Below the pieces are notes generated by a model that was not told the origin of the DNA, ran no database searches, and saw only the letters and a program-made list of their open reading frames with translations. Position numbers and translations under genes: made by a program. A stretch of DNA of 64,000 nucleotides from contig DASWHD010000135.1 of assembly GCA_036393335.1 (NCBI GenBank), forward strand, positions 14,405-78,404. Reading direction: 5' to 3'. The stretch is from a bacterium. Its GTDB lineage: Bacteria > CG2-30-53-67 > CG2-30-70-394. Of this stretch, positions 27,467 through 59,439 are shown piece by piece (position 1 is the stretch's first letter; each line of letters opens with the position of its first letter).

Positions 27467-27593
27467 GCTGAGATAGGGGATAGGGGGTTGCGGGGAGGAG
27501 GTGGTGGTAGTGAGGGTAGGAGAGGGACGGGAAGGTCCACTGCCAGCCCCCAGGGCTCGCGGCCGTTTCCTAGTCCCGAACCCCCTGCCCGCG

Positions 27594-30060: not shown

Positions 30061-30503
30061 TGCTGGCCGTCGGCGCCGATCACGGCGGCGTGCATCTCAA
30101 GGAGGTCGTGGTGCGCGCCCTGGAACGGCGCGGTATCCCGTTCGTCGACCTCGGAACCAACGATGTGGCCTCGGTTGACTACCCGGACTTTGCCGCCAAG
30201 GTGGCGAGCGGGGTCGCCAACGGCGACTACGATCGCGGCATCCTGATCTGCGGCACCGGCATCGGCATGTCGATCGCCGCCAACAAGTTCTTCGGGGTGC
30301 GCGCGGCCCTGTGTCACGACACCTACACCGCGCGCATGTCCCGCCTGCACAACGACGCCAACATCCTGGTCCTGGGGGAACGGGTCACCGGCCCCGGGGT
30401 CGCGGAAGAGATCGTCGAGGTGTGGCTCGACACATCCTTCGAGGGGGGGCGCCACACCGTCCGTGTGGAGAAGATCCACCGGCACGAAAACCGACACCGG
30501 TGA
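30060..30503 (+). CDS. rpiB: Ribose-5-phosphate isomerase B (RpiB/LacAB family)
   Basis: [10 protein letters not shown]...[28 protein letters not shown]. Confidence 0.85.
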
Positions 30504-30546
30504 GCCGCGGTACCCGTTTTGGCACCGCGGACGCATTCCTCTGCAA

Positions 30547-30619
30547 GGAAAGCAGGAAGGCAGGAAATCCTTCTCTCATGGGTTGCCGACTCTTCCCTCT
30601 TCCTGCTTTCCTGCCTTCC
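30547..30619. repeat. GCAGGAA-unit hairpin (family A) between rpiB and glyA
   Basis: GGAAAGCAGGAAGGCAGGAAA pairs with CTTCCTGCTTTCCTGCCTTCC across a ~30 nt loop. It is preceded by a 7-bp stem CCGCGGT/ACCGCGG at the rpiB stop. Confidence 0.5.
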
Positions 30620-30675
30620 TTAGAGGATTGTGCGACGTCGTAGCTGTCAGACCGTCGCGGATTGGAGAGTCATCT

Positions 30676-31935
30676 ATGCTCAAGCTTGCCAATACCACCG
30701 ATGCCCTCCGCGCAGTCGATCCCGAGGTCGCGGCCGCCCTGGATGCCGAGCGCGAGCGAGAGAACGACACCCTGGTCCTGATCGCCAGCGAGAACTACGC
30801 CTCGGAGGCGGTGCTCGCGGCCCAGGGGTCATTGCTCACCAACAAGTACGCCGAGGGCTACCCGGGCAAGCGCTACTATGCCGGCTGCGAGAACGCCGAC
30901 ACGGTGGAGGCCCTGGCCATCGAGCGTGCCAAGCGGCTCTTCAAGGTGGACCACGCGAACGTTCAGCCGCACTCGGGCAGCTCCGCGAACATGACCGCCT
31001 ACCTGGCGGTATTGAAGCCGGGCGACAAGATCCTCGGTATGTCCCTGGCGCATGGCGGGCACCTCACCCACGGTGCCAAGGTGAGCTTTTCCGGCAAGCT
31101 CTTTTCGTCGTTCTTCTACGGTGTCGACGTGGCTACCGGACGGATCGACATGGCGGAGGTGGCGCGCATCGCGGCCATCGTCCAGCCGCGGATGATCGTC
31201 ACCGGCGCCTCCGCCTACCCGCGCTTCTTCGACTGGCAGGCCTTCCACGACATCGCCAATGAGCACAAGGCGTACCTGATGGCGGACATCGCGCACATCG
31301 CCGGACCGGTGGCCGCCGGTCTCCATCCCAGCCCGGTGGGGTATGCCGACTTCGTCACGACCACGACCCACAAGACCCTGCGCGGACCGCGCGGTGGCAT
31401 GGTGATGTGCACCGCGGAGCACGCCAAGGCGGTGGACAAGATCCTCTTCCCCGGGCTCCAGGGGGGACCACTGGTCCACACCATCGCGGCCAAGGCGGTG
31501 GCCTTGCACGAGGCCCTGCAGCCCGCCTTCGTCGACTACCAACGGCAGGTGTTGGCCAACGCCCGGGCCCTGGGCGAGCGCCTCGTGGCGCACGGCTTCG
31601 ACCTCATCTCCGGCGGCACCGACAACCACCTGGTGCTGGTCGACCTGCGTAACAAGGGGGTGACCGGCGCCGATGCCGAGGCCGCCCTGCACGCGGCGGG
31701 CCTCACCTGCAACAAGAACGGTATCCCCAACGATCCGCAGCCGCCGGTGGTGACCAGTGGCGTCCGTCTCGGCACGCCGGTGATGACCACCCGCGGCATG
31801 GGCACCGAGGAGGCGCTACAGGTCGCCGACTGGATCGACAAGATCCTGCGCGACCCGGGCGACACGGCGGTGCAGCGCCGGGTGCGCGGCGAGGTTACCG
31901 CGCTGTGCCGCCGCTTCCCGGCGTACAGCGAGTAG
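30676..31935 (+). CDS. glyA: Serine hydroxymethyltransferase GlyA
   Basis: ENYASEAVLAAQGS...VTTTTHKTLRGPRGG (PLP-lysine region); 419 aa. Confidence 0.95.
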   Translation: MLKLANTTDALRAVDPEVAAALDAERERENDTLVLIASENYASEAVLAAQGSLLTNKYAEGYPGKRYYAGCENADTVEALAIERAKRLFKVDHANVQPHSGSSANMTAYLAVLKPGDKILGMSLAHGGHLTHGAKVSFSGKLFSSFFYGVDVATGRIDMAEVARIAAIVQPRMIVTGASAYPRFFDWQAFHDIANEHKAYLMADIAHIAGPVAAGLHPSPVGYADFVTTTTHKTLRGPRGGMVMCTAEHAKAVDKILFPGLQGGPLVHTIAAKAVALHEALQPAFVDYQRQVLANARALGERLVAHGFDLISGGTDNHLVLVDLRNKGVTGADAEAALHAAGLTCNKNGIPNDPQPPVVTSGVRLGTPVMTTRGMGTEEALQVADWIDKILRDPGDTAVQRRVRGEVTALCRRFPAYSE

Positions 31936-39592: not shown

Positions 39593-39610
39593 CCGGACGC
39601 GGCCCGGTAG

Positions 39611-39638
39611 GTAGGGGCATGGCATGCCGTGCCCCTAC
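39611..39638 (+). terminator. GC-rich stem-loop downstream of rluB (GTAGGGGCA...GTGCCCCTAC), no U-tract
   Basis: 9-10 bp stem with a palindromic loop GGCATGCC, 19 nt after the rluB stop. Confidence 0.3.
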
Positions 39639-39816
39639 GGTGCGGACTCTTCCGCCGCCGCTGCTCGACCAGGGCTGTCCTTGGCAGTCGGCCGAGCGTG
39701 GGCTATAAACTCCGCCCACTTTGAAGTCTGTCCTCCACCACTGCGTTGCTGCTGGTACCGACCTTCACGCCCGCGCCACGGCGTTCCTCGCGCGCCATCC
39801 AGATCCCGTCACCCGA

Positions 39817-42272: not shown

Positions 42273-42473
42273 AGCCCGCATTTCTCACCAGGGATCGTGG
42301 CGAGACCGTGCAAACGCGCGTAGACCCTGGCCGGCCCGCGGTAGGAGCCGATTCTATCGGCGACCCCATGTGGCAGATCGCCGAAGGGATTCGGCTCCTA
42401 CCCCGGACGAGGACCCGGCTAGGAGATGCGGGCGGTTGCGCGGTCGCAGCAGAGTCATGGTGAGAAATGCGGG
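42273..42473. repeat. Palindromic repeat element copy 1 (~200 bp, 16-22 bp terminal inverted repeats CCCGCATTTCTCACCA / TGGTGAGAAATGCGGG; MITE-like or structured RNA)
   Basis: Roughly 75 bp at the 5' end and 50 bp at the 3' end are near-identical to the element at 58276-58502. The internal sequence is an extended imperfect palindrome. Confidence 0.65.
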
Positions 42474-44731: not shown

Positions 44732-45523
44732 ATGGTGAAGATCCATCCTACCGCCATCGTGGAGGAGGGGGCCCAGATCGCCGACGGTGTCGAGGTCGGC
44801 CCATTCGCGATCATCGGCCCCCAGGTGCGGATCGGCGAACGCACCGTCGTGGGTCCCTACACCGTGATCCAGGGACGCACCGAGATCGGCGCGGACAACC
44901 GCATCCACCAGTCGGTGTCCATCGGCGACGTCCCCCAGGACTTGAAGTACGAGGGTGAGGAGTCGGCGGTGCGCATCGGGAATCGCAACACCGTGCGCGA
45001 GTTCGTCACCATCCACCGCGGCACCCAGGGCGACCAGATGGTCACCGTGGTGGGCGACGGCAACCTGCTGATGGTCGGAGTGCACCTCGCCCATGACGTG
45101 GTGGTGGGCAACCACGCGATCCTGGCCAACACCGTCGCCCTGGCGGGGCACGTGCATGTGGGCGACCACGCGATCATCGGCGGCCTGTCTGCGGTCCACC
45201 AGTTTGTGCGCATCGGTGACCACGCGATGATTGGCGGCGCCTCGGCGGTAGCCAACGACGTGCCGCCGTTCCTCACGGTGCTCGGCAACCGGGCCGTGGC
45301 CCAGGGGCTCAACCTGGTGGGGCTGCGGCGGCGCAAGTTCTCGCGCGAAGCGATCAACACCATCCGCGAGGCGTTCGAGATCCTCTACCGCTCCCAGCTC
45401 CCACAGAGCGAAGCCCTGGAACGGGTGCGCAAGGAGCTGCCGGACATCCCGGAGATCCGCACCTTCCTCACCTTCATCGAGCAGTCGGAGCGCGGCATCG
45501 TTCGCTGCGTGGACTGTGTGTAG
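44732..45523 (+). CDS. lpxA: Acyl-ACP--UDP-GlcNAc O-acyltransferase LpxA
   Basis: MVKIHPTAIVEEGAQIADGVEVGPFAIIG...hexapeptide repeats...FLTFIEQSERGI. Confidence 0.95.
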   Translation: MVKIHPTAIVEEGAQIADGVEVGPFAIIGPQVRIGERTVVGPYTVIQGRTEIGADNRIHQSVSIGDVPQDLKYEGEESAVRIGNRNTVREFVTIHRGTQGDQMVTVVGDGNLLMVGVHLAHDVVVGNHAILANTVALAGHVHVGDHAIIGGLSAVHQFVRIGDHAMIGGASAVANDVPPFLTVLGNRAVAQGLNLVGLRRRKFSREAINTIREAFEILYRSQLPQSEALERVRKELPDIPEIRTFLTFIEQSERGIVRCVDCV

Positions 45524-45640
45524 GGGAGAGGGTAAGAGCCGACTCCGATCGGCGATTCACGCCCGCGGAGCGTGGCACGGCAAGCGCTGGACAGCACAAG
45601 AATGGTCGCCGATGGGAATCGGCTCCTACCTTTATTGAAG

Positions 45641-46225
45641 ATGCTTGACGCCATCCGCCAGCAATTCCTCGCCAGTGCCGCCGTCCAGCAGGAGGCGGCG
45701 CGAACCCTGGCCGAACCGGTCGCGGCGGCCGCCGAGAAGGTCATTGCCGCCCTCCGCGCGGGTCGCAAGGTGCTGCTGTGCGGTAACGGCGGCTCTGCCG
45801 CCGACGCGCAACATATCGCCGCGGAGCTGGTGGGGCGCTACGCTCGCGAGCGACGCGGCTTGCCCGCCGTGGCCCTGACCACCGACACCTCGGCCCTCAC
45901 GGCCATCGGCAACGATTATGGCTTCGACCGGATCTTCGCGCGCCAGGTCGAGGCCCTGGCCCAGGCCGGGGACGTGCTCATCGCCATCTCCACCAGCGGC
46001 AACTCGCCCAACGTCTTGCAGGCGGTGGAGACGGCGCGGCAGCTGGGCGTGGGCACCATCGGCCTCGCGGGCCGCGGTGGCGGTGCCCTGCGCGCGCTGG
46101 TCGACCTCTGCCTCGTCGCCCCCCATGAGGAGACCGCGCGCATACAGGAGCTGCACATCACCATCGGGCATATCCTGTGTGACTTGGTGGAGGCGGCCCT
46201 GGTGTCAGAAGAGGGTGCGGGGTGA
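45641..46225 (+). CDS. gmhA: SIS-domain phosphoheptose isomerase (GmhA/DiaA family)
   Basis: LLCGNGGSAADAQHIAAELVGRY...DVLIAISTSGNSPNV (SIS). Start could be 45572. Confidence 0.7.
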   Translation: MLDAIRQQFLASAAVQQEAARTLAEPVAAAAEKVIAALRAGRKVLLCGNGGSAADAQHIAAELVGRYARERRGLPAVALTTDTSALTAIGNDYGFDRIFARQVEALAQAGDVLIAISTSGNSPNVLQAVETARQLGVGTIGLAGRGGGALRALVDLCLVAPHEETARIQELHITIGHILCDLVEAALVSEEGAG

Positions 46226-46227
46226 CA

Positions 46228-46336
46228 AGTAGACAACAGTAGGTAGTAGACAGTAGACAGTAGACAGCAGGGCTCGACTCCGGGCCTGAGGCCGGCTCCC
46301 CTCTGTCTACTGTCTACTCCCTACTGTCTACTCTCC
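46228..46336. repeat. Long imperfect hairpin built from tandem GTAGACA heptamers
   Basis: The 5' arm AGTAGACAACAGTAGGTAGTAGACAGTAGACAGTAGACAG is mirrored by the 3' arm CTGTCTACTGTCTACTCCCTACTGTCTACT around a GC-rich loop. It ends 4 nt before the ATG at 46341. Confidence 0.6.
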
Positions 46337-46340
46337 CCTC

Positions 46341-47282
46341 ATGCCCTTTCCCCAGATCGACCTCGCCAAGGGCAAGACCCGTCCCTTGGCGGAGCGGCCG
46401 AACAAGGTCAACACCGGCCACTTCGCGGCGCCGGTCACAGGCGTCCCGGACATCGCCGCCTTCATCGACGGCCTGCCCAAAATCCTCGCGGCCGATGACC
46501 TGCGCTCCCTGATCGACGCCATCGTCACGGCCCGGCAGCGCGGGCGCCCAGTAGTCCTGGCCATGGGCGCCCACGTCCTTAAGACCGGTCTCACTCCGCT
46601 GTTGCTCCACGCCCTTGACCGGGGGGTCGTCACGGCATTCGCCTTGAACTCCGCCGGCTCTATCCACGACCTGGAGATCGCCCTGATCGGCGCGACCTCC
46701 GAGGACGTGGCGGTGGGGATCGAGGATGGCTCGTTCGGCATGTGGCAGGAGACCGGCGCATGGATCCACCGCGCGGTCCAGGCCGGATTACAGGACGGCC
46801 TCGGCTATGGCGAGGCCGTGGGACGGGCGATCCTGCGCGATGCACCCCACCCTGAGTATTCGTTGCTCGCCCGCTGCGCCGAGCGCCAGGTCCCCGCCAC
46901 GGTCCACGTAGCGATTGGTACCGACATCGTCCACATGCACCCGGAGATGAACGGCGCCACCCTCGGCGAGGCGAGCTTCGTCGACTTCAAGATCATCAGC
47001 CGGGTGGTGGCCGACCTGGAGGGCGGCGGGGTGTGGATCAACTGCGGCAGCTCGGTGATCCTGCCGGAGGTGTTCCTCAAGGCGGTGACCCTCTGTCGCA
47101 ACCAGGGCTACCCGGTAGCCGACATCGTCACCGCTAACCTCGACATGATCCGCCACTACCGTCCCCACGAAAACGTGCTCGCCCGTCCCACCAGCCGCGG
47201 CGGTCGCTCCTACCAGCTCATCGGCCACCACGAGATCATGGTGCCCCTGTTACTGCACGGCTGCTTCGCGCGACTCGTCTGA
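46341..47282 (+). CDS. Conserved hypothetical protein, possibly deoxyhypusine-synthase-like (DS family) fold
   Basis: Weak pattern resemblance to DHS (...AMGAHVLKTGLTPLLLHALDRGVVTAFALNSAGSIHDLEIAL...). Not confident. Confidence 0.35.
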   Translation: MPFPQIDLAKGKTRPLAERPNKVNTGHFAAPVTGVPDIAAFIDGLPKILAADDLRSLIDAIVTARQRGRPVVLAMGAHVLKTGLTPLLLHALDRGVVTAFALNSAGSIHDLEIALIGATSEDVAVGIEDGSFGMWQETGAWIHRAVQAGLQDGLGYGEAVGRAILRDAPHPEYSLLARCAERQVPATVHVAIGTDIVHMHPEMNGATLGEASFVDFKIISRVVADLEGGGVWINCGSSVILPEVFLKAVTLCRNQGYPVADIVTANLDMIRHYRPHENVLARPTSRGGRSYQLIGHHEIMVPLLLHGCFARLV

Positions 47283-58275: not shown

Positions 58276-58502
58276 AGCCCGCATTTCTCACCAGGGATCG
58301 TGGCGAGACCGTGCAAACGCGCGTAGATCCTGGCTGGCCCGCGGTAGGAGCCGAATCCCTGCGGCGACCCAGGCCCGTAGGGCCTGCTGCGTGGATCGCC
58401 GGTGCAACCGGCTCCTACCCCTGTCGAGGACTCGGATGAGGACCCGGCCAGGAGATGCGGGTGGTTGCGCGGGCGCAGCAGATTCATGGTGAGAAATGCG
58501 CG
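58276..58502. repeat. Palindromic repeat element copy 2 (~225 bp; TIR GCTAGCCCGCATTTCTCACC / GGTGAGAAATGCGCGCTAGC)
   Basis: Shares the terminal ~75/~50 bp with copy 1 and carries an extra ~25 bp internally. Its distal GCTAGC overlaps the TAG stop of the hydrogenase small-subunit gene. Confidence 0.65.
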
Positions 58503-59255: not shown

Positions 59256-59439
59256 GGTCGTAGGAACTGGGTGCGCCGTGCGCGTCGGGGTGCGAGATGG
59301 GGGATGAGGGTTGGGGGGATGGATGGCCGCTTCGCGGCCAGACGGTTTCTTTCGCGACGAGTCTTCAGCATCGTTTTACTCCGCCCGCAGAGCCATCCTT
59401 TCCCCCACTCCCCATCGCCCGACCCCCATCCCTCCCGCC

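What the first reader, a model, noticed from the sequence alone, without database searches (positions are those of the whole stretch)
46226..46340. Long hairpin made of tandem GTAGACA heptamers immediately upstream of a start codon
Between the gmhA-like stop and the ATG at 46341 is a ~110-nt imperfect inverted repeat. Both arms consist of 3-4 tandem copies of the heptamer (G)TAGACA(G), separated by a GC-rich loop that is itself partly palindromic. It is not a CRISPR array (no spacers, heptamer unit) and has no U-tract. The 3' arm ends 4 nt from the start codon and would occlude any ribosome-binding site, so it looks like a translational or transcriptional control structure, or an array of half-sites for a DNA-binding protein with a 7-bp phase.
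Basis: seen in the sequence. Interest (0 to 1): 0.6.

Follow-up and report, generated by a model that had tools for sequence, protein, structure and literature searches.

The report
Hypervariable GTAG-heptamer palindrome between two genes
The hairpin is real: it is a repeat-built palindrome that fills the whole gap between two genes, changes its repeat number between strains of one species, and belongs to a widespread but little-studied class of bacterial intergenic repeats whose function has not been tested.

Summary
Window 46226-46340 is a 115-nt spacer made of (GTAGACA)n, a 37-nt centre and (TGTCTAC)n. It is predicted to fold into a 47-bp hairpin (-67 kcal/mol, z -5.6).

It is not unique. 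Eleven near-identical contigs (99.7-100% identity) carry 2, 3 or 4 copies in the 5' arm, and this 7-nt indel is the only recurrent indel in about 20 kb. A sister species (87% amino-acid identity) keeps the hairpin at 94% identity, against 65% at third codon positions. Other relatives carry different heptamer arrays at the same place.

The same architecture occurs in at least 120 metagenome contigs and 17 viral contigs. The order is always GTAG arm then CTAC arm (50:0). GTAG is conserved and the other three bases vary. No case lies between divergent genes.

The helix foot typically runs from the upstream stop codon to about 5 nt before the downstream start codon, which lacks a Shine-Dalgarno sequence.

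Best reading: a REP/BIME-like heptamer simple-sequence-repeat palindrome that evolves by slippage. As RNA it hides the start region and probably couples translation of the downstream gene to termination at gmhA. That function is inferred, not shown.

The parts
45641..46225 (+). Upstream gene: a gmhA-like SIS-domain protein (194 aa from the ATG at 45641). Its stop codon TGA lies at 46223-46225. Its last codons and the stop codon form the 5' side of the hairpin foot.
   Evidence: Pfam SIS_2 hit, E = 1.5e-32. Gene calls on identical contigs. Pairing of 46216-46225 with 46332-46341.
46229..46266 (+). 5' arm: a purine-rich heptamer array. It reads GTAGACA, then ACA, then GTAGGTA, then GTAGACA three times. 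The number of GTAGACA units next to the centre varies between conspecific contigs (2, 3 or 4).
   Evidence: The indels are AGACAGC at 46262 and AGTAGAC at 46244.
46267..46303 (+). Unique centre: GCAGGGCTCGACTCCGGGCCTGAGGCCGGCTCCCCTC, containing the small palindrome CCGGGCC-TGA-GGCCGG (46280-46295). The central 33 nt align with no mismatch to the sister species L011; the two differences in the centre lie further 3' (GGCCGG in the window, GGCGTG in L011).
46304..46331 (+). 3' arm: a pyrimidine-rich heptamer array. It reads TGTCTAC, TGTCTAC, TCCCTAC, TGTCTAC, the reverse complement of GTAG-type units. It is the same in all 11 conspecific contigs.
46332..46340 (+). C-rich leader TCTCCCCTC directly before the ATG. 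It has no Shine-Dalgarno motif and is predicted to pair with the end of gmhA (GCGGGGTGA).
   Evidence: The same pairing is predicted in L011.
46341..47282 (+). Downstream gene: a 313-aa protein related to deoxyhypusine synthase. Its start region lies in the hairpin foot.
   Evidence: Homologues are named deoxyhypusine synthase and carry PF01916. The window protein itself has no Pfam hit at E <= 1e-3.

Best explanation
What it is (well supported). The spacer is a palindromic intergenic repeat element whose two arms are heptanucleotide simple-sequence repeats. Each unit has the form GTAG+NNN. The GTAG units are on the left and their complement (NNN+CTAC) is on the right, around a short unique centre. 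This makes it a variant of the REP/BIME kind of element (a palindrome preceded by GTAG, arranged as an inverted pair). In this variant the GTAG end is repeated every 7 nt. It also belongs to the heptameric repeats that are over-represented in bacterial intergenic DNA. Its arms gain and lose 7-nt units by slipped-strand mispairing, which gives 2-, 3- and 4-copy alleles in natural populations of one species.

How it probably works (inferred). It is probably transcribed as part of an lpxD-fabZ-lpxA-gmhA-(DHS-like) mRNA. There it would fold into a hairpin of about 47 bp that occupies the whole spacer. The foot of this hairpin pairs the last codons and stop codon of gmhA with the 10 nt that precede the AUG of the next gene, and with the A of that AUG. 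That gene has no Shine-Dalgarno sequence. A free 30S subunit therefore cannot easily start there. A ribosome terminating at the gmhA stop codon melts the foot and exposes the AUG, which the folded upper stem holds next to the stop codon. Translation of the downstream gene would then be coupled to, and limited by, translation of gmhA. The stable stem may in addition protect the upstream mRNA end or be cut by RNase III.
For: Identity
- Tandem 7-nt arrays in inverted order.
- Contigs 99.7-100% identical to the window differ by 7-nt indels in the 5' arm. This is the only recurrent indel in about 20 kb.
- The same unit and architecture occur in at least 120 metagenome and 17 viral contigs. One of them was typed as Pyrinomonadaceae.
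- There are 50 purine-arm-then-pyrimidine-arm pairs and none in the opposite order. No such array was found in 1.17 Mb of control loci.
- Unit positions 1-4 (GTAG) are 87-95% conserved and positions 5-7 vary. The spacer between GTAGs is NCA in 71% of units.
- Gene contexts: 21 between co-oriented genes, 7 between convergent genes, 0 between divergent genes.
- REP is defined as a palindrome preceded by GTAG, and BIME as REP plus inverted REP (PMC8266576).
- Heptamer repeats that sit just after stop codons and just before start codons, vary in copy number between species and are rare between divergent genes are described in PMC4692102.

Function
- The predicted helix spans 46216-46341, has 47 pairs, and includes the stop codon and the A of the AUG. 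The same foot is predicted in the sister species.
- There is no Shine-Dalgarno sequence before this gene in any of 10 relatives except possibly L017.
- In 21 hairpins of this class that lie between co-oriented genes, the stop codon is paired in 13, the foot ends a median of 5 nt before the start codon, and only 3 have a Shine-Dalgarno-like motif.
- The spacer is 94% identical to L011, against 65% at third codon positions and 54-80% in other spacers.
- Precedents: heptamer repeats abutting start codons that lack a Shine-Dalgarno sequence (PMC4679880), and a heptamer-repeat 5'-UTR hairpin that controls expression through RNase III (PMC12721329).
Against: - No expression data exist. Co-transcription, folding in the cell and coupling are all inferred.
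- The two strands fold equally well, so the structure could matter in DNA rather than RNA.
- A test for G-U versus A-C mismatches relative to the direction of transcription gave no sign of selection at the RNA level (8 versus 15). The arms mismatch freely at unit position 5.
- At least one close relative has only the start-proximal array with no 5' arm (L015), and the L018 contig ends inside its array. L017 and L142 have no array at all. The hairpin is therefore dispensable for expressing this gene.
- About half of all genes in this lineage lack a Shine-Dalgarno sequence anyway.
- Being close to both stop and start codons could simply result from insertion into a short spacer within an operon.
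- Only one GTAGACA locus was seen in the 64-kb window, and no REP-associated transposase was found.
Confidence: 0.45

Rival explanations
1. Neutral or selfish by-product. The palindrome is a slippage-prone, REP-like repeat that is merely tolerated in this spacer. It has no role in expressing either neighbouring gene.
For: - Copy number varies within the species.
- Sister species carry unrelated heptamer arrays, a different hairpin or nothing at the same site.
- The class is scattered over unrelated sites, hosts and phages.
- There is no compensatory pattern between the arms.
- Units containing TAG stop all three reading frames, so they can only expand outside genes.
- The published heptamer-repeat studies found no function (PMC4692102).
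Against: - The spacer is 94% identical to a species with near-saturated synonymous sites, higher than second codon positions (91%). This includes the central 33 nt, which align without a mismatch.
- The GTAG core is conserved across phyla.
- The arm order is 50:0.
- The geometry from stop codon to start codon recurs, and the Shine-Dalgarno sequence is displaced. The downstream gene must therefore be translated from within the element.
Confidence: 0.3
2. An RNA-end element. The hairpin acts mainly as a transcription terminator or attenuator without a U-tract, as a barrier against 3' exonucleases, or as an RNase III processing site that separates the lpx-gmhA message from the downstream genes.
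For: - It starts 3 nt after a stop codon and is very stable.
- The class is absent from spacers between divergent genes and is present between convergent genes.
- Many members in other organisms enclose a classical GC-rich stem with an A-run before it and a T-run after it.
- REP/BIME elements are known to regulate at transcriptional and post-transcriptional levels (PMC8266576).
- RNase III cuts a heptamer-repeat hairpin in H. influenzae (PMC12721329).
Against: - The window copy has no U-tract and no terminator-like site.
- No promoter-like site for the downstream gene was found in 45300-46700. Full termination would therefore silence the DHS-like and AcrB-like genes.
- The 3' arm abuts the start codon, which a pure terminator does not need.
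Confidence: 0.2
3. A DNA-level recognition array. The GTAG units are binding or cleavage sites for a sequence-specific protein, such as a REP-associated tyrosine transposase or a nucleoid protein, acting on hairpin or single-stranded DNA. The heptamer arrays would be made or maintained by that protein.
For: - GTAG is the conserved part of each unit.
- NCA precedes the next GTAG in 71% of units. TnpA-REP needs GTAG 5' of the palindrome and cuts at CT or CA dinucleotides (PMC8266576).
- The 50:0 arm order places GTAG 5' of the centre on both strands, as that enzyme requires.
- Both strands fold equally well.
Against: - No transposase-like ORF was found in about 2.4 Mb of fetched DNA. The query sequence was written from memory, so this is a weak negative.
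- Other heptamer arrays at the same locus in relatives lack GTAG (CGCTGAC, CAGCGAA).
- No tandem GTAG iteration is described for known REPs.
Confidence: 0.1
4. A contingency (phase-variation-like) locus. Changes in repeat number tune expression of the downstream gene, as in the H. influenzae hmw genes.
For: - Natural 2/3/4-copy alleles exist.
- The heptamer repeats form a hairpin arm directly upstream of a start codon.
- There is a mechanistic precedent (PMC12721329).
Against: - The variable units lie next to the loop.
- Predicted stability is almost the same in the three alleles (-68.3, -67.3 and -69.1 kcal/mol) and the foot is unchanged.
- The neighbouring genes are housekeeping genes, not surface or host-interaction genes.
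- The Xanthomonas/Nostoc heptamer study considered a phase-variation role unlikely for the same reason (PMC4692102).
Confidence: 0.1

Closest known systems
REP/BIME elements (REPIN-like inverted REP pairs) mobilised by TnpA-REP (RAYT)
   Same: - It lies outside genes.
- It is an imperfect palindrome preceded by the tetranucleotide GTAG, arranged as an inverted pair with GTAG and CTAC at the outer ends.
- It is absent between divergent genes.
- In some hosts it is present in many copies (several copies on one contig).
- The window also holds a plainer family of this type: GTAG-GA-GCCGAT-TCT-ATCGGC ... GCCGAA-GGGA-TTCGGC-TC-CTAC, three copies in 64 kb.
   Different: - Here the GTAG end is repeated in tandem every 7 nt on both sides, so the arms are simple-sequence repeats rather than a unique palindrome.
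- Copy number varies within a species.
- Only one GTAGACA locus occurs in the 64-kb window.
- No associated transposase gene was seen.
Intergenic heptanucleotide simple-sequence repeats: GGGNATC repeats of Xanthomonas/Nostoc (PMC4692102) and the tandem heptanucleotides of Calothrix cited there
   Same: - The period is 7 nt.
- They are strongly biased to non-coding DNA between co-oriented genes.
- The purine- or G-rich strand lies just after stop codons and the pyrimidine-rich strand just before start codons.
- They are rare between divergent genes.
- Length and sequence vary between close relatives at the same locus.
- Inverted pairs that can form stem-loops were noted.
- Some arrays in relatives of the window organism are of that G-rich type, for example (AGGGGAT)6 in L011.
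   Different: - The unit is GTAGNCA, which is not G-rich, so it cannot form a G-quadruplex.
- It is nearly always an inverted pair around a centre.
- The host phyla differ (Nitrospirota, Acidobacteriota).
TAACTGA direct repeats of marine Beggiatoaceae (PMC4679880)
   Same: Heptamer arrays in one fixed orientation end within a few nucleotides of start codons, where the ribosome-binding site would be. The genes behind them mostly lack a Shine-Dalgarno sequence. The same unit occurs in distant phyla.
   Different: Those are single direct arrays, with only one inverted case among 170. Here the array is one arm of a hairpin whose other arm abuts the upstream stop codon. The unit sequence also differs (TGTCTAC/TGACTAC versus TAACTGA).
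H. influenzae hmw 5'-UTR (ATCTTTC)n hairpin processed by RNase III (PMC12721329)
   Same: A heptamer repeat forms an arm of a long RNA hairpin directly upstream of a coding sequence. Repeat number is polymorphic in natural populations.
   Different: In hmw only one arm is repetitive, and copy number is large (at least 11) and inversely related to expression of a surface adhesin. Here both arms are repeats, there are 2-4 variable units, the neighbouring genes are housekeeping genes, and no expression or RNase III data exist.

Membership tests
Heptanucleotide simple-sequence repeat (SSR) array | At least 3 head-to-tail units of 7 nt | tested here: met
   Tandem Repeats Finder reports period 7 with 4.6 and 4.3 copies. 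Exact units are listed.
Heptanucleotide simple-sequence repeat (SSR) array | Unit-number polymorphism between close strains (slippage) | tested here: met
   The spacer is 108, 115 or 122 nt long in contigs 99.7-100% identical to the window. The indels are exactly 7 nt.
Heptanucleotide simple-sequence repeat (SSR) array | Published position rule (PMC4692102): between co-oriented ORFs, purine-rich strand within 50 bp after a stop codon, pyrimidine-rich strand within 50 bp before a start codon, rare between divergent ORFs | tested here: met
   Window: the 5' arm starts 3 nt after TGA, and the 3' arm ends 9 nt before ATG. For the class: 21 co-oriented, 7 convergent and 0 divergent contexts; distances are.
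REP/BIME (REPIN) | Conserved GTAG tetranucleotide 5' of a palindrome | tested here: met
   Every unit of the 5' arm, and of the complement of the 3' arm, starts with GTAG. In the wider class GTAG is 87-95% conserved and positions 5-7 vary. The definition comes from PMC8266576.
REP/BIME (REPIN) | REP and inverted REP arranged as a pair, with GTAG and CTAC at the outer ends | tested here: met
   There are 50 pairs with the GTAG arm first and the CTAC arm second, and none in the reverse order. The window element has the same order.
REP/BIME (REPIN) | Many dispersed copies within one genome | tested here: inconclusive
   Only one GTAGACA locus occurs in the 64-kb window. The rest of the genome was not available. 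In other hosts there are 2-3 separate copies on single contigs (L029, L033, L062, L108, L124, L125, L126).
REP/BIME (REPIN) | A cognate TnpA-REP (RAYT) gene in the genome | not testable with these tools
   No hit was found in about 2.4 Mb of fetched DNA, using a query sequence recalled from memory. Whole genomes could not be scanned.
Intrinsic (Rho-independent) terminator | A GC-rich stem followed by a U-tract | tested here: not met
   No terminator-like site occurs in 45300-46700. The 3' arm is followed by TCTCCCCTCATG.
CRISPR array | Direct repeats of about 23-50 nt separated by unique spacers of similar length | tested here: not met
   The units are 7 nt long, contiguous, and in inverted blocks.
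Any curated RNA family (Rfam 15) | A match at the family's gathering score | tested here: not met
   No match was found in the window. With the relaxed E-value threshold only far-sub-threshold matches to microRNA hairpin models appear. Ten related loci also gave no match.
hmw-type repeat-dependent 5'-UTR hairpin | A heptamer repeat forms an arm of a long hairpin just upstream of the coding sequence | tested here: met
   The predicted 47-bp helix reaches the AUG.
hmw-type repeat-dependent 5'-UTR hairpin | The repeat is transcribed, RNase III cuts the hairpin, and copy number changes expression | not testable with these tools
   No transcript or protein data are available for this uncultured organism.
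TAACTGA-type start-proximal repeats | Heptamer array in a fixed orientation ending a few nt before a start codon that lacks a Shine-Dalgarno sequence | tested here: met
   Window. Class: 21 of 34 start-side distances are 12 nt or less, and only 3 of 21 cases have a Shine-Dalgarno-like motif.
TAACTGA-type start-proximal repeats | Unit sequence TAACTGA | tested here: not met
   The unit is TGTCTAC here, and TGACTAC or TGGCTAC in other hosts.

The most novel reading that the evidence does not exclude
GTAG-heptamer palindromes may be a cross-phylum device that joins cistrons. The hairpin foot places the upstream stop codon, which is often the TAG of the first GTAG unit, next to an AUG that has no Shine-Dalgarno sequence. 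A terminating ribosome would then restart on the other side of the hairpin without unwinding it, in a bacterial counterpart of ribosome shunting. A separate possibility is that a GTAG-guided HUH/Y1 enzyme, rather than polymerase slippage, writes the 7-nt iteration.
Probability: 0.12. Interest if true: 0.8.

Novelty: new variant of a known kind. Interest (0 to 1): 0.5.

Why it matters
Heptamer repeats are the most over-represented long simple-sequence repeats in many bacterial genomes. After 35 years they still have no accepted function or origin.

This locus, with the family it led to, gives concrete handles on that question:
- a conserved GTAG core that links heptamer repeats to REP/BIME biology;
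- an absolute arm order (50:0);
- a recurring geometry in which the helix runs from the stop codon of one gene to the start codon of the next, and that start codon lacks a Shine-Dalgarno sequence;
- natural copy-number alleles in one population.

If the inferred coupling is real, a common class of supposedly junk repeats sets the relative output of neighbouring genes in operons of soil and sediment bacteria, and even of their phages. It would also explain how some genes without a Shine-Dalgarno sequence are translated. If it is not real, the family is still a useful strain-typing marker and a frequent cause of assembly breaks.

Tried and rejected
1. Known RNA families. Rfam gave no match in the window at gathering score. 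With the relaxed E-value threshold it gave only sub-threshold microRNA-hairpin look-alikes. Ten related loci also gave nothing.

2. Promoter and terminator consensus scan of 45300-46700: nothing found. GTAGACA contains TAGACA, one mismatch from the -35 consensus, but I saw no matching -10 element downstream by eye.

3. Strand test for RNA-level selection. I compared G-U with A-C mismatches between the arms, relative to the direction of transcription, in 21 elements between co-oriented genes. The result was 8 versus 15, so there is no support. Most mismatches sit at the free unit position 5 and depend on the alignment register.

4. Search for a REP-associated transposase in all fetched DNA, using a sequence recalled from memory: no hit. 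This is a weak negative.

5. Relation between the hairpin centre and the window's GGTAGGAGCCGA REP-like family. Only patchy similarity was found (shared CGACTCCG and CGGCTCC), so I make no claim.

6. Whether any of the 120 metagenome hits came from the window's organism: none did.

7. Literature search for the exact repeat strings: only unrelated primer sequences turned up.

8. A G-quadruplex reading was rejected for this unit because it has no G-runs.

9. A CRISPR reading was rejected because the units are 7 nt long and contiguous.
Full report
**1. The observation**

The spacer between the gmhA-like stop codon (TGA, 46223-46225) and the ATG at 46341 is 115 nt long. It reads CAA-GTAGACA-ACA-GTAGGTA-(GTAGACA)x3, then a 37-nt centre, then TGTCTAC-TGTCTAC-TCCCTAC-TGTCTAC-TCTCCCCTC.

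- Seven of the nine GTAGACA sites in the 64-kb window lie here, where 2.1 are expected. No shuffle out of 100 reached nine.
- The double unit occurs six times, all here, against 0.06 expected.
- Tandem Repeats Finder reports two period-7 arrays.
- The longest inverted repeat of the window is at this place.
- As RNA the region folds at -67.3 kcal/mol (z -5.6). The opposite strand folds at -72.4 kcal/mol (z -6.5).
- There is no U-tract, no terminator-like site and no sigma-70-like promoter. There is no Rfam family.

The description is therefore correct. One detail needs amending. The last exact heptamer ends 9 nt before the ATG. Predicted pairing, however, continues to the A of the ATG, and on the other side reaches back into the last codons of gmhA, giving 47 pairs between 46216 and 46341.

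**2. Context**

The element lies in a co-oriented gene row: bamA, ompH, lpxD, fabZ, lpxA, gmhA-like, a 313-aa deoxyhypusine-synthase-like gene, and an AcrB-type pump. Named close homologues come from uncultured Nitrospirota. G+C content is about 67%.

**3. Variation within the species**

The exact downstream protein is encoded on ten other metagenome contigs. They are 99.7-100% identical to the window over up to 21 kb. Their spacers are 108, 115 or 122 nt long.

- Six contigs have two GTAGACA units next to the centre.
- The window and three contigs have three units.
- One contig has four.

The 3' arm never changes. The 7-nt indel is the only recurrent indel in these alignments. The others are a single 1-nt indel and a single 3-nt indel. 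This is what slipped-strand mispairing in a simple-sequence repeat looks like. Predicted hairpin stability is nearly the same for the three alleles (-68.3, -67.3 and -69.1 kcal/mol), and the foot is unchanged.

**4. The same locus in related species**

- A species whose orthologue is 87% identical in amino acids (L011/L013) has the same hairpin with a different number of units.
- In one MAFFT alignment of 11 kb, this spacer is 94% identical (90 of 96 ungapped columns). Third codon positions are 65% identical, second positions 91%, and the other spacers 54-80%. Fourfold-degenerate sites are 57-65% identical.
- The central 33 nt align without a mismatch.

Other relatives carry something different at the same place:

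| Locus | Amino-acid identity | What sits before the ATG |
|---|---|---|
| L015 | 79% | (TTTCTAC)x4 only, no 5' arm |
| L018 | 85% | at least 8 copies of CCTAATCCCTAGCT running up to the ATG |
| L020 | 89% | CCCTAAT-TCCTAGT-CCCTAGC as the 3' arm of another hairpin |
| L019 | 86% | a hairpin ending in (CGCTGAC)x2 |
| L143 | 78% | (CAGCGAA)x3 |
| L016 | 88% | an unrelated hairpin, G-rich arm then C-rich arm |
| L017, L142 | 76-78% | no array |

None except possibly L017 has a Shine-Dalgarno sequence, and all have a C-rich leader. The site is thus a hotspot for period-7 arrays whose sequence turns over. The hairpin as such is not indispensable.

**5. The window and its relatives hold more such elements**

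- 30540-30625: a hairpin of AGGAAAGC octamers. The same unit forms a hairpin at a different locus in L011.
- 27467-27593: a hairpin running from the stop codon to the start codon on the minus strand. It has (CCCCTAT)x2 8 nt before an ATG that lacks a Shine-Dalgarno sequence.
- 59256-59439: a long hairpin with a G-rich arm followed by a C-rich arm.
- Three copies of a plain REP/BIME-like pair: GTAG-GA-GCCGAT-TCT-ATCGGC ... GCCGAA-GGGA-TTCGGC-TC-CTAC.
- In L011: (AGGGGAT)6 ... (ACCCCTA)11, and heptamers between fabZ and lpxA.

**6. Wider distribution**

None of them is from the window's organism.

In the 59 contigs with G+C of at least 0.6, the hit is almost always part of the same architecture:
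- (GTAG+NNN)n;
- then often GTAGAAA;
- then a centre of 20-120 nt;
- then often TTTCTAC;
- then (NNN+CTAC)n.

Several contigs carry two or three separate copies.

Counts:
- 63 GTAG runs and 64 CTAC runs;
- 50 adjacent pairs in the order GTAG then CTAC, and none in the reverse order;
- no such run in 1.17 Mb of control loci from other lineages.

Within arrays, GTAG is 87-95% conserved. Position 5 is free, position 6 is C in 57% of units, and position 7 is A in 73%. The spacer between in-phase GTAGs is NCA in 71%.

Gene contexts that could be determined were 21 co-oriented, 7 convergent and 0 divergent.

**7. Geometry**

In the 21 co-oriented cases:
- the stop codon of the upstream gene has at least 2 of its 3 nt paired in the main helix in 13;
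- in several, the stop codon is the TAG of the first GTAG unit, and TAG is the stop codon in 10 of 21;
- the helix foot ends a median of 5 nt before the downstream start codon;
- only 3 have a Shine-Dalgarno-like motif.

Over all contexts, 21 of 34 start-side distances are 12 nt or less.

The window element fits this pattern. GCGGGGUGA at the end of gmhA pairs with UCUCCCCUC(A) at the AUG. The sister species has the equivalent GUGGGG/CUCCCC foot. About half of the genes in this lineage have a Shine-Dalgarno-like motif, but those directly behind repeat arrays do not.

**8. Comparison with what is known**

[quoted passage not shown] BIMEs combine a REP and an inverted REP. TnpA-REP needs the GTAG and cuts at CT or CA next to the REP (PMC8266576). 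The element matches on the GTAG end, the inverted-pair order and the extragenic position. It differs in repeating the GTAG end every 7 nt. The cognate enzyme and the copy number in this genome could not be assessed.
- Heptameric repeats are reported as over-represented in bacterial genomes. In Xanthomonas and Nostoc they sit between co-oriented genes, with the G-rich strand just after stop codons and the C-rich strand just before start codons. They are rare between divergent genes, vary between close relatives and have no known function. A polymerase-slippage origin has been proposed (PMC4692102). All of these positional rules hold here.
- TAACTGA repeats in Beggiatoaceae end about 1 nt before start codons that lack a Shine-Dalgarno sequence. 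A translational role through S1, Csp or CsrA was proposed (PMC4679880).
- In H. influenzae, the (ATCTTTC)n repeat forms one arm of a 5'-UTR hairpin. RNase III processes it, and repeat number sets expression (PMC12721329).
- I found no paper that mentions GTAGACA or GTAGTCA arrays. The searchable library is limited.

**9. Mechanism**

Shown:
- the repeat architecture;
- the slippage alleles;
- conservation against a sister species;
- the class-wide arm order, GTAG core and gene contexts;
- the predicted helix from stop codon to start codon;
- the absence of a Shine-Dalgarno sequence.

Inferred:
- the spacer is transcribed with gmhA, since no promoter or terminator signal was found;
- the hairpin forms in the RNA;
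- its foot hides the start region;
- a ribosome terminating in the foot opens it, so translation of the downstream gene is coupled to gmhA;
- the stem may also serve as an exonuclease barrier or an RNase III site.

Against this:
- both strands fold equally well;
- there is no G-U versus A-C bias in favour of the sense RNA;
- several relatives lack the hairpin or any array;
- nearness to both codons may simply reflect insertion into a short spacer.

I therefore give the composite explanation a confidence of 0.45, with the identity part far more secure than the functional part. The rivals are a neutral by-product (0.3), an RNA-end or processing element (0.2), a DNA-level recognition array (0.1) and a contingency locus (0.1). 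They partly overlap.

**10. Verdict**

This is a real feature and more than chance. It is not a one-off riboregulator. It is one member of a widespread family of repeat-built palindromes that combines properties of REP/BIME elements and of heptamer simple-sequence repeats. Within the literature I could search, this GTAG-heptamer form, its strict arm order and its stop-to-start geometry appear to be undescribed. I rate it a new variant of a known kind, of moderate interest.

Noticed in passing
window 30540-30625; L011 5915-5991: A second repeat-built hairpin. Its arms are tandem octamers: AGGAAAGC/AGGAAGGC, then CTTCCTGC/CTGCCTTC. It lies between a stop codon at 30503 and a gene starting at 30676 that does have a Shine-Dalgarno sequence. 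The same octamer forms a hairpin at a different locus (between bamA and ompH) in the sister species, so this unit is dispersed.
   Followed up: partly
window 27467-27593 (genes on the minus strand): A hairpin fills the whole spacer between two minus-strand genes, from 4 nt after the stop codon to about 10 nt before the ATG. It has (CCCCTAT)x2 8 nt before a start codon that lacks a Shine-Dalgarno sequence. The geometry is the same as in the finding, but with a G-rich/C-rich heptamer.
   Followed up: partly
window 42340-42402, 45531-45630, 58343-58419: Three copies of a REP/BIME-like inverted pair: GGTAGGAGCCGA(T/A)TC..ATCGGCGA ... TCGCCGA..GGGA(A)TTCGGCTCCTACC. One copy sits just upstream of gmhA, and its CTAC end lies 12 nt before that gene's ATG, which has no Shine-Dalgarno sequence. 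The copies at 42320 and 58320 also share upstream flanking sequence (GTAGA(C/T)CCTGGC(C/T)GGCCCGC).
   Followed up: partly
window 59256-59439 and 39593-39640: Two further long intergenic hairpins with a purine-rich 5' arm and a pyrimidine-rich 3' arm: GGGGATGAGGG... / ...CCCTCATCCCC, and GGTAGGTAGGGGCA...TGCCCCTACGG. L016 has a hairpin of the first type at the locus between gmhA and the DHS-like gene.
   Followed up: no
L011 2084-2278: (AGGGGAT)x5.9 followed by (ACCCCTA)x10.9. The pair runs from the end of a 111-aa ORF to 8 nt before the next ATG. The unit is of the GGGGAT type described as quadruplex-forming in Nostoc and Xanthomonas.
   Followed up: no
L018 1-116: At least 8.3 copies of the 14-mer CCTAATCCCTAGCT (two heptamers) run up to 4 nt before the ATG of the DHS-like gene. 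The contig ends inside the array, so the assembly probably broke at the repeat.
   Followed up: no
L015 2035-11889: In the relative with 79% amino-acid identity, a WYL-domain gene and a complete type I-E CRISPR-Cas operon (cas3, cse1, cse2, cas7, cas5, cas6e, cas1, cas2) follow the DHS-like gene. The window has the AcrB-type pump at that position.
   Followed up: no
L024, L032, L033, L047, L062, L082, L100, L108, L126, L127, L134 and others (centres of the hairpins): At least 22 of 50 GTAG-heptamer hairpins in high-G+C contigs, one of which was typed as Pyrinomonadaceae, share an asymmetric centre of about 62 nt: GTAGAAAGAC..TTCG..GAATCGTCCGG..TGTCAGCGTCAGCGGCC..GCGCGGAGCGCTAC. Others share a terminator-like centre: GCGGCGCGTCTCAGCCTTCGGGCCGGACGCGCCGC. 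There is no Rfam match. I did not test whether the orientation of the centre follows the direction of the neighbouring genes.
   Followed up: partly
L224, L225, L226, L230 (IMGVR_UViG_3300010379_000008, 51 kb): One viral contig (G+C about 0.63) carries four separate GTAGACA hairpins with short loops. The element class therefore also occurs in phage or prophage DNA.
   Followed up: no
21 loci with co-oriented neighbouring genes among L029-L134: TAG is the stop codon of the upstream gene in 10 of 21 cases. In many of these it is the TAG of the first GTAG unit, so the repeat supplies the stop codon.
   Followed up: partly
window 46341-47282: The 313-aa downstream protein has no Pfam-A hit at E <= 1e-3. 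Yet thousands of homologues exist, some with PF01916 (deoxyhypusine synthase) and some named as such. The family is widespread in Nitrospirota, Geobacterales and Planctomycetota.
   Followed up: no
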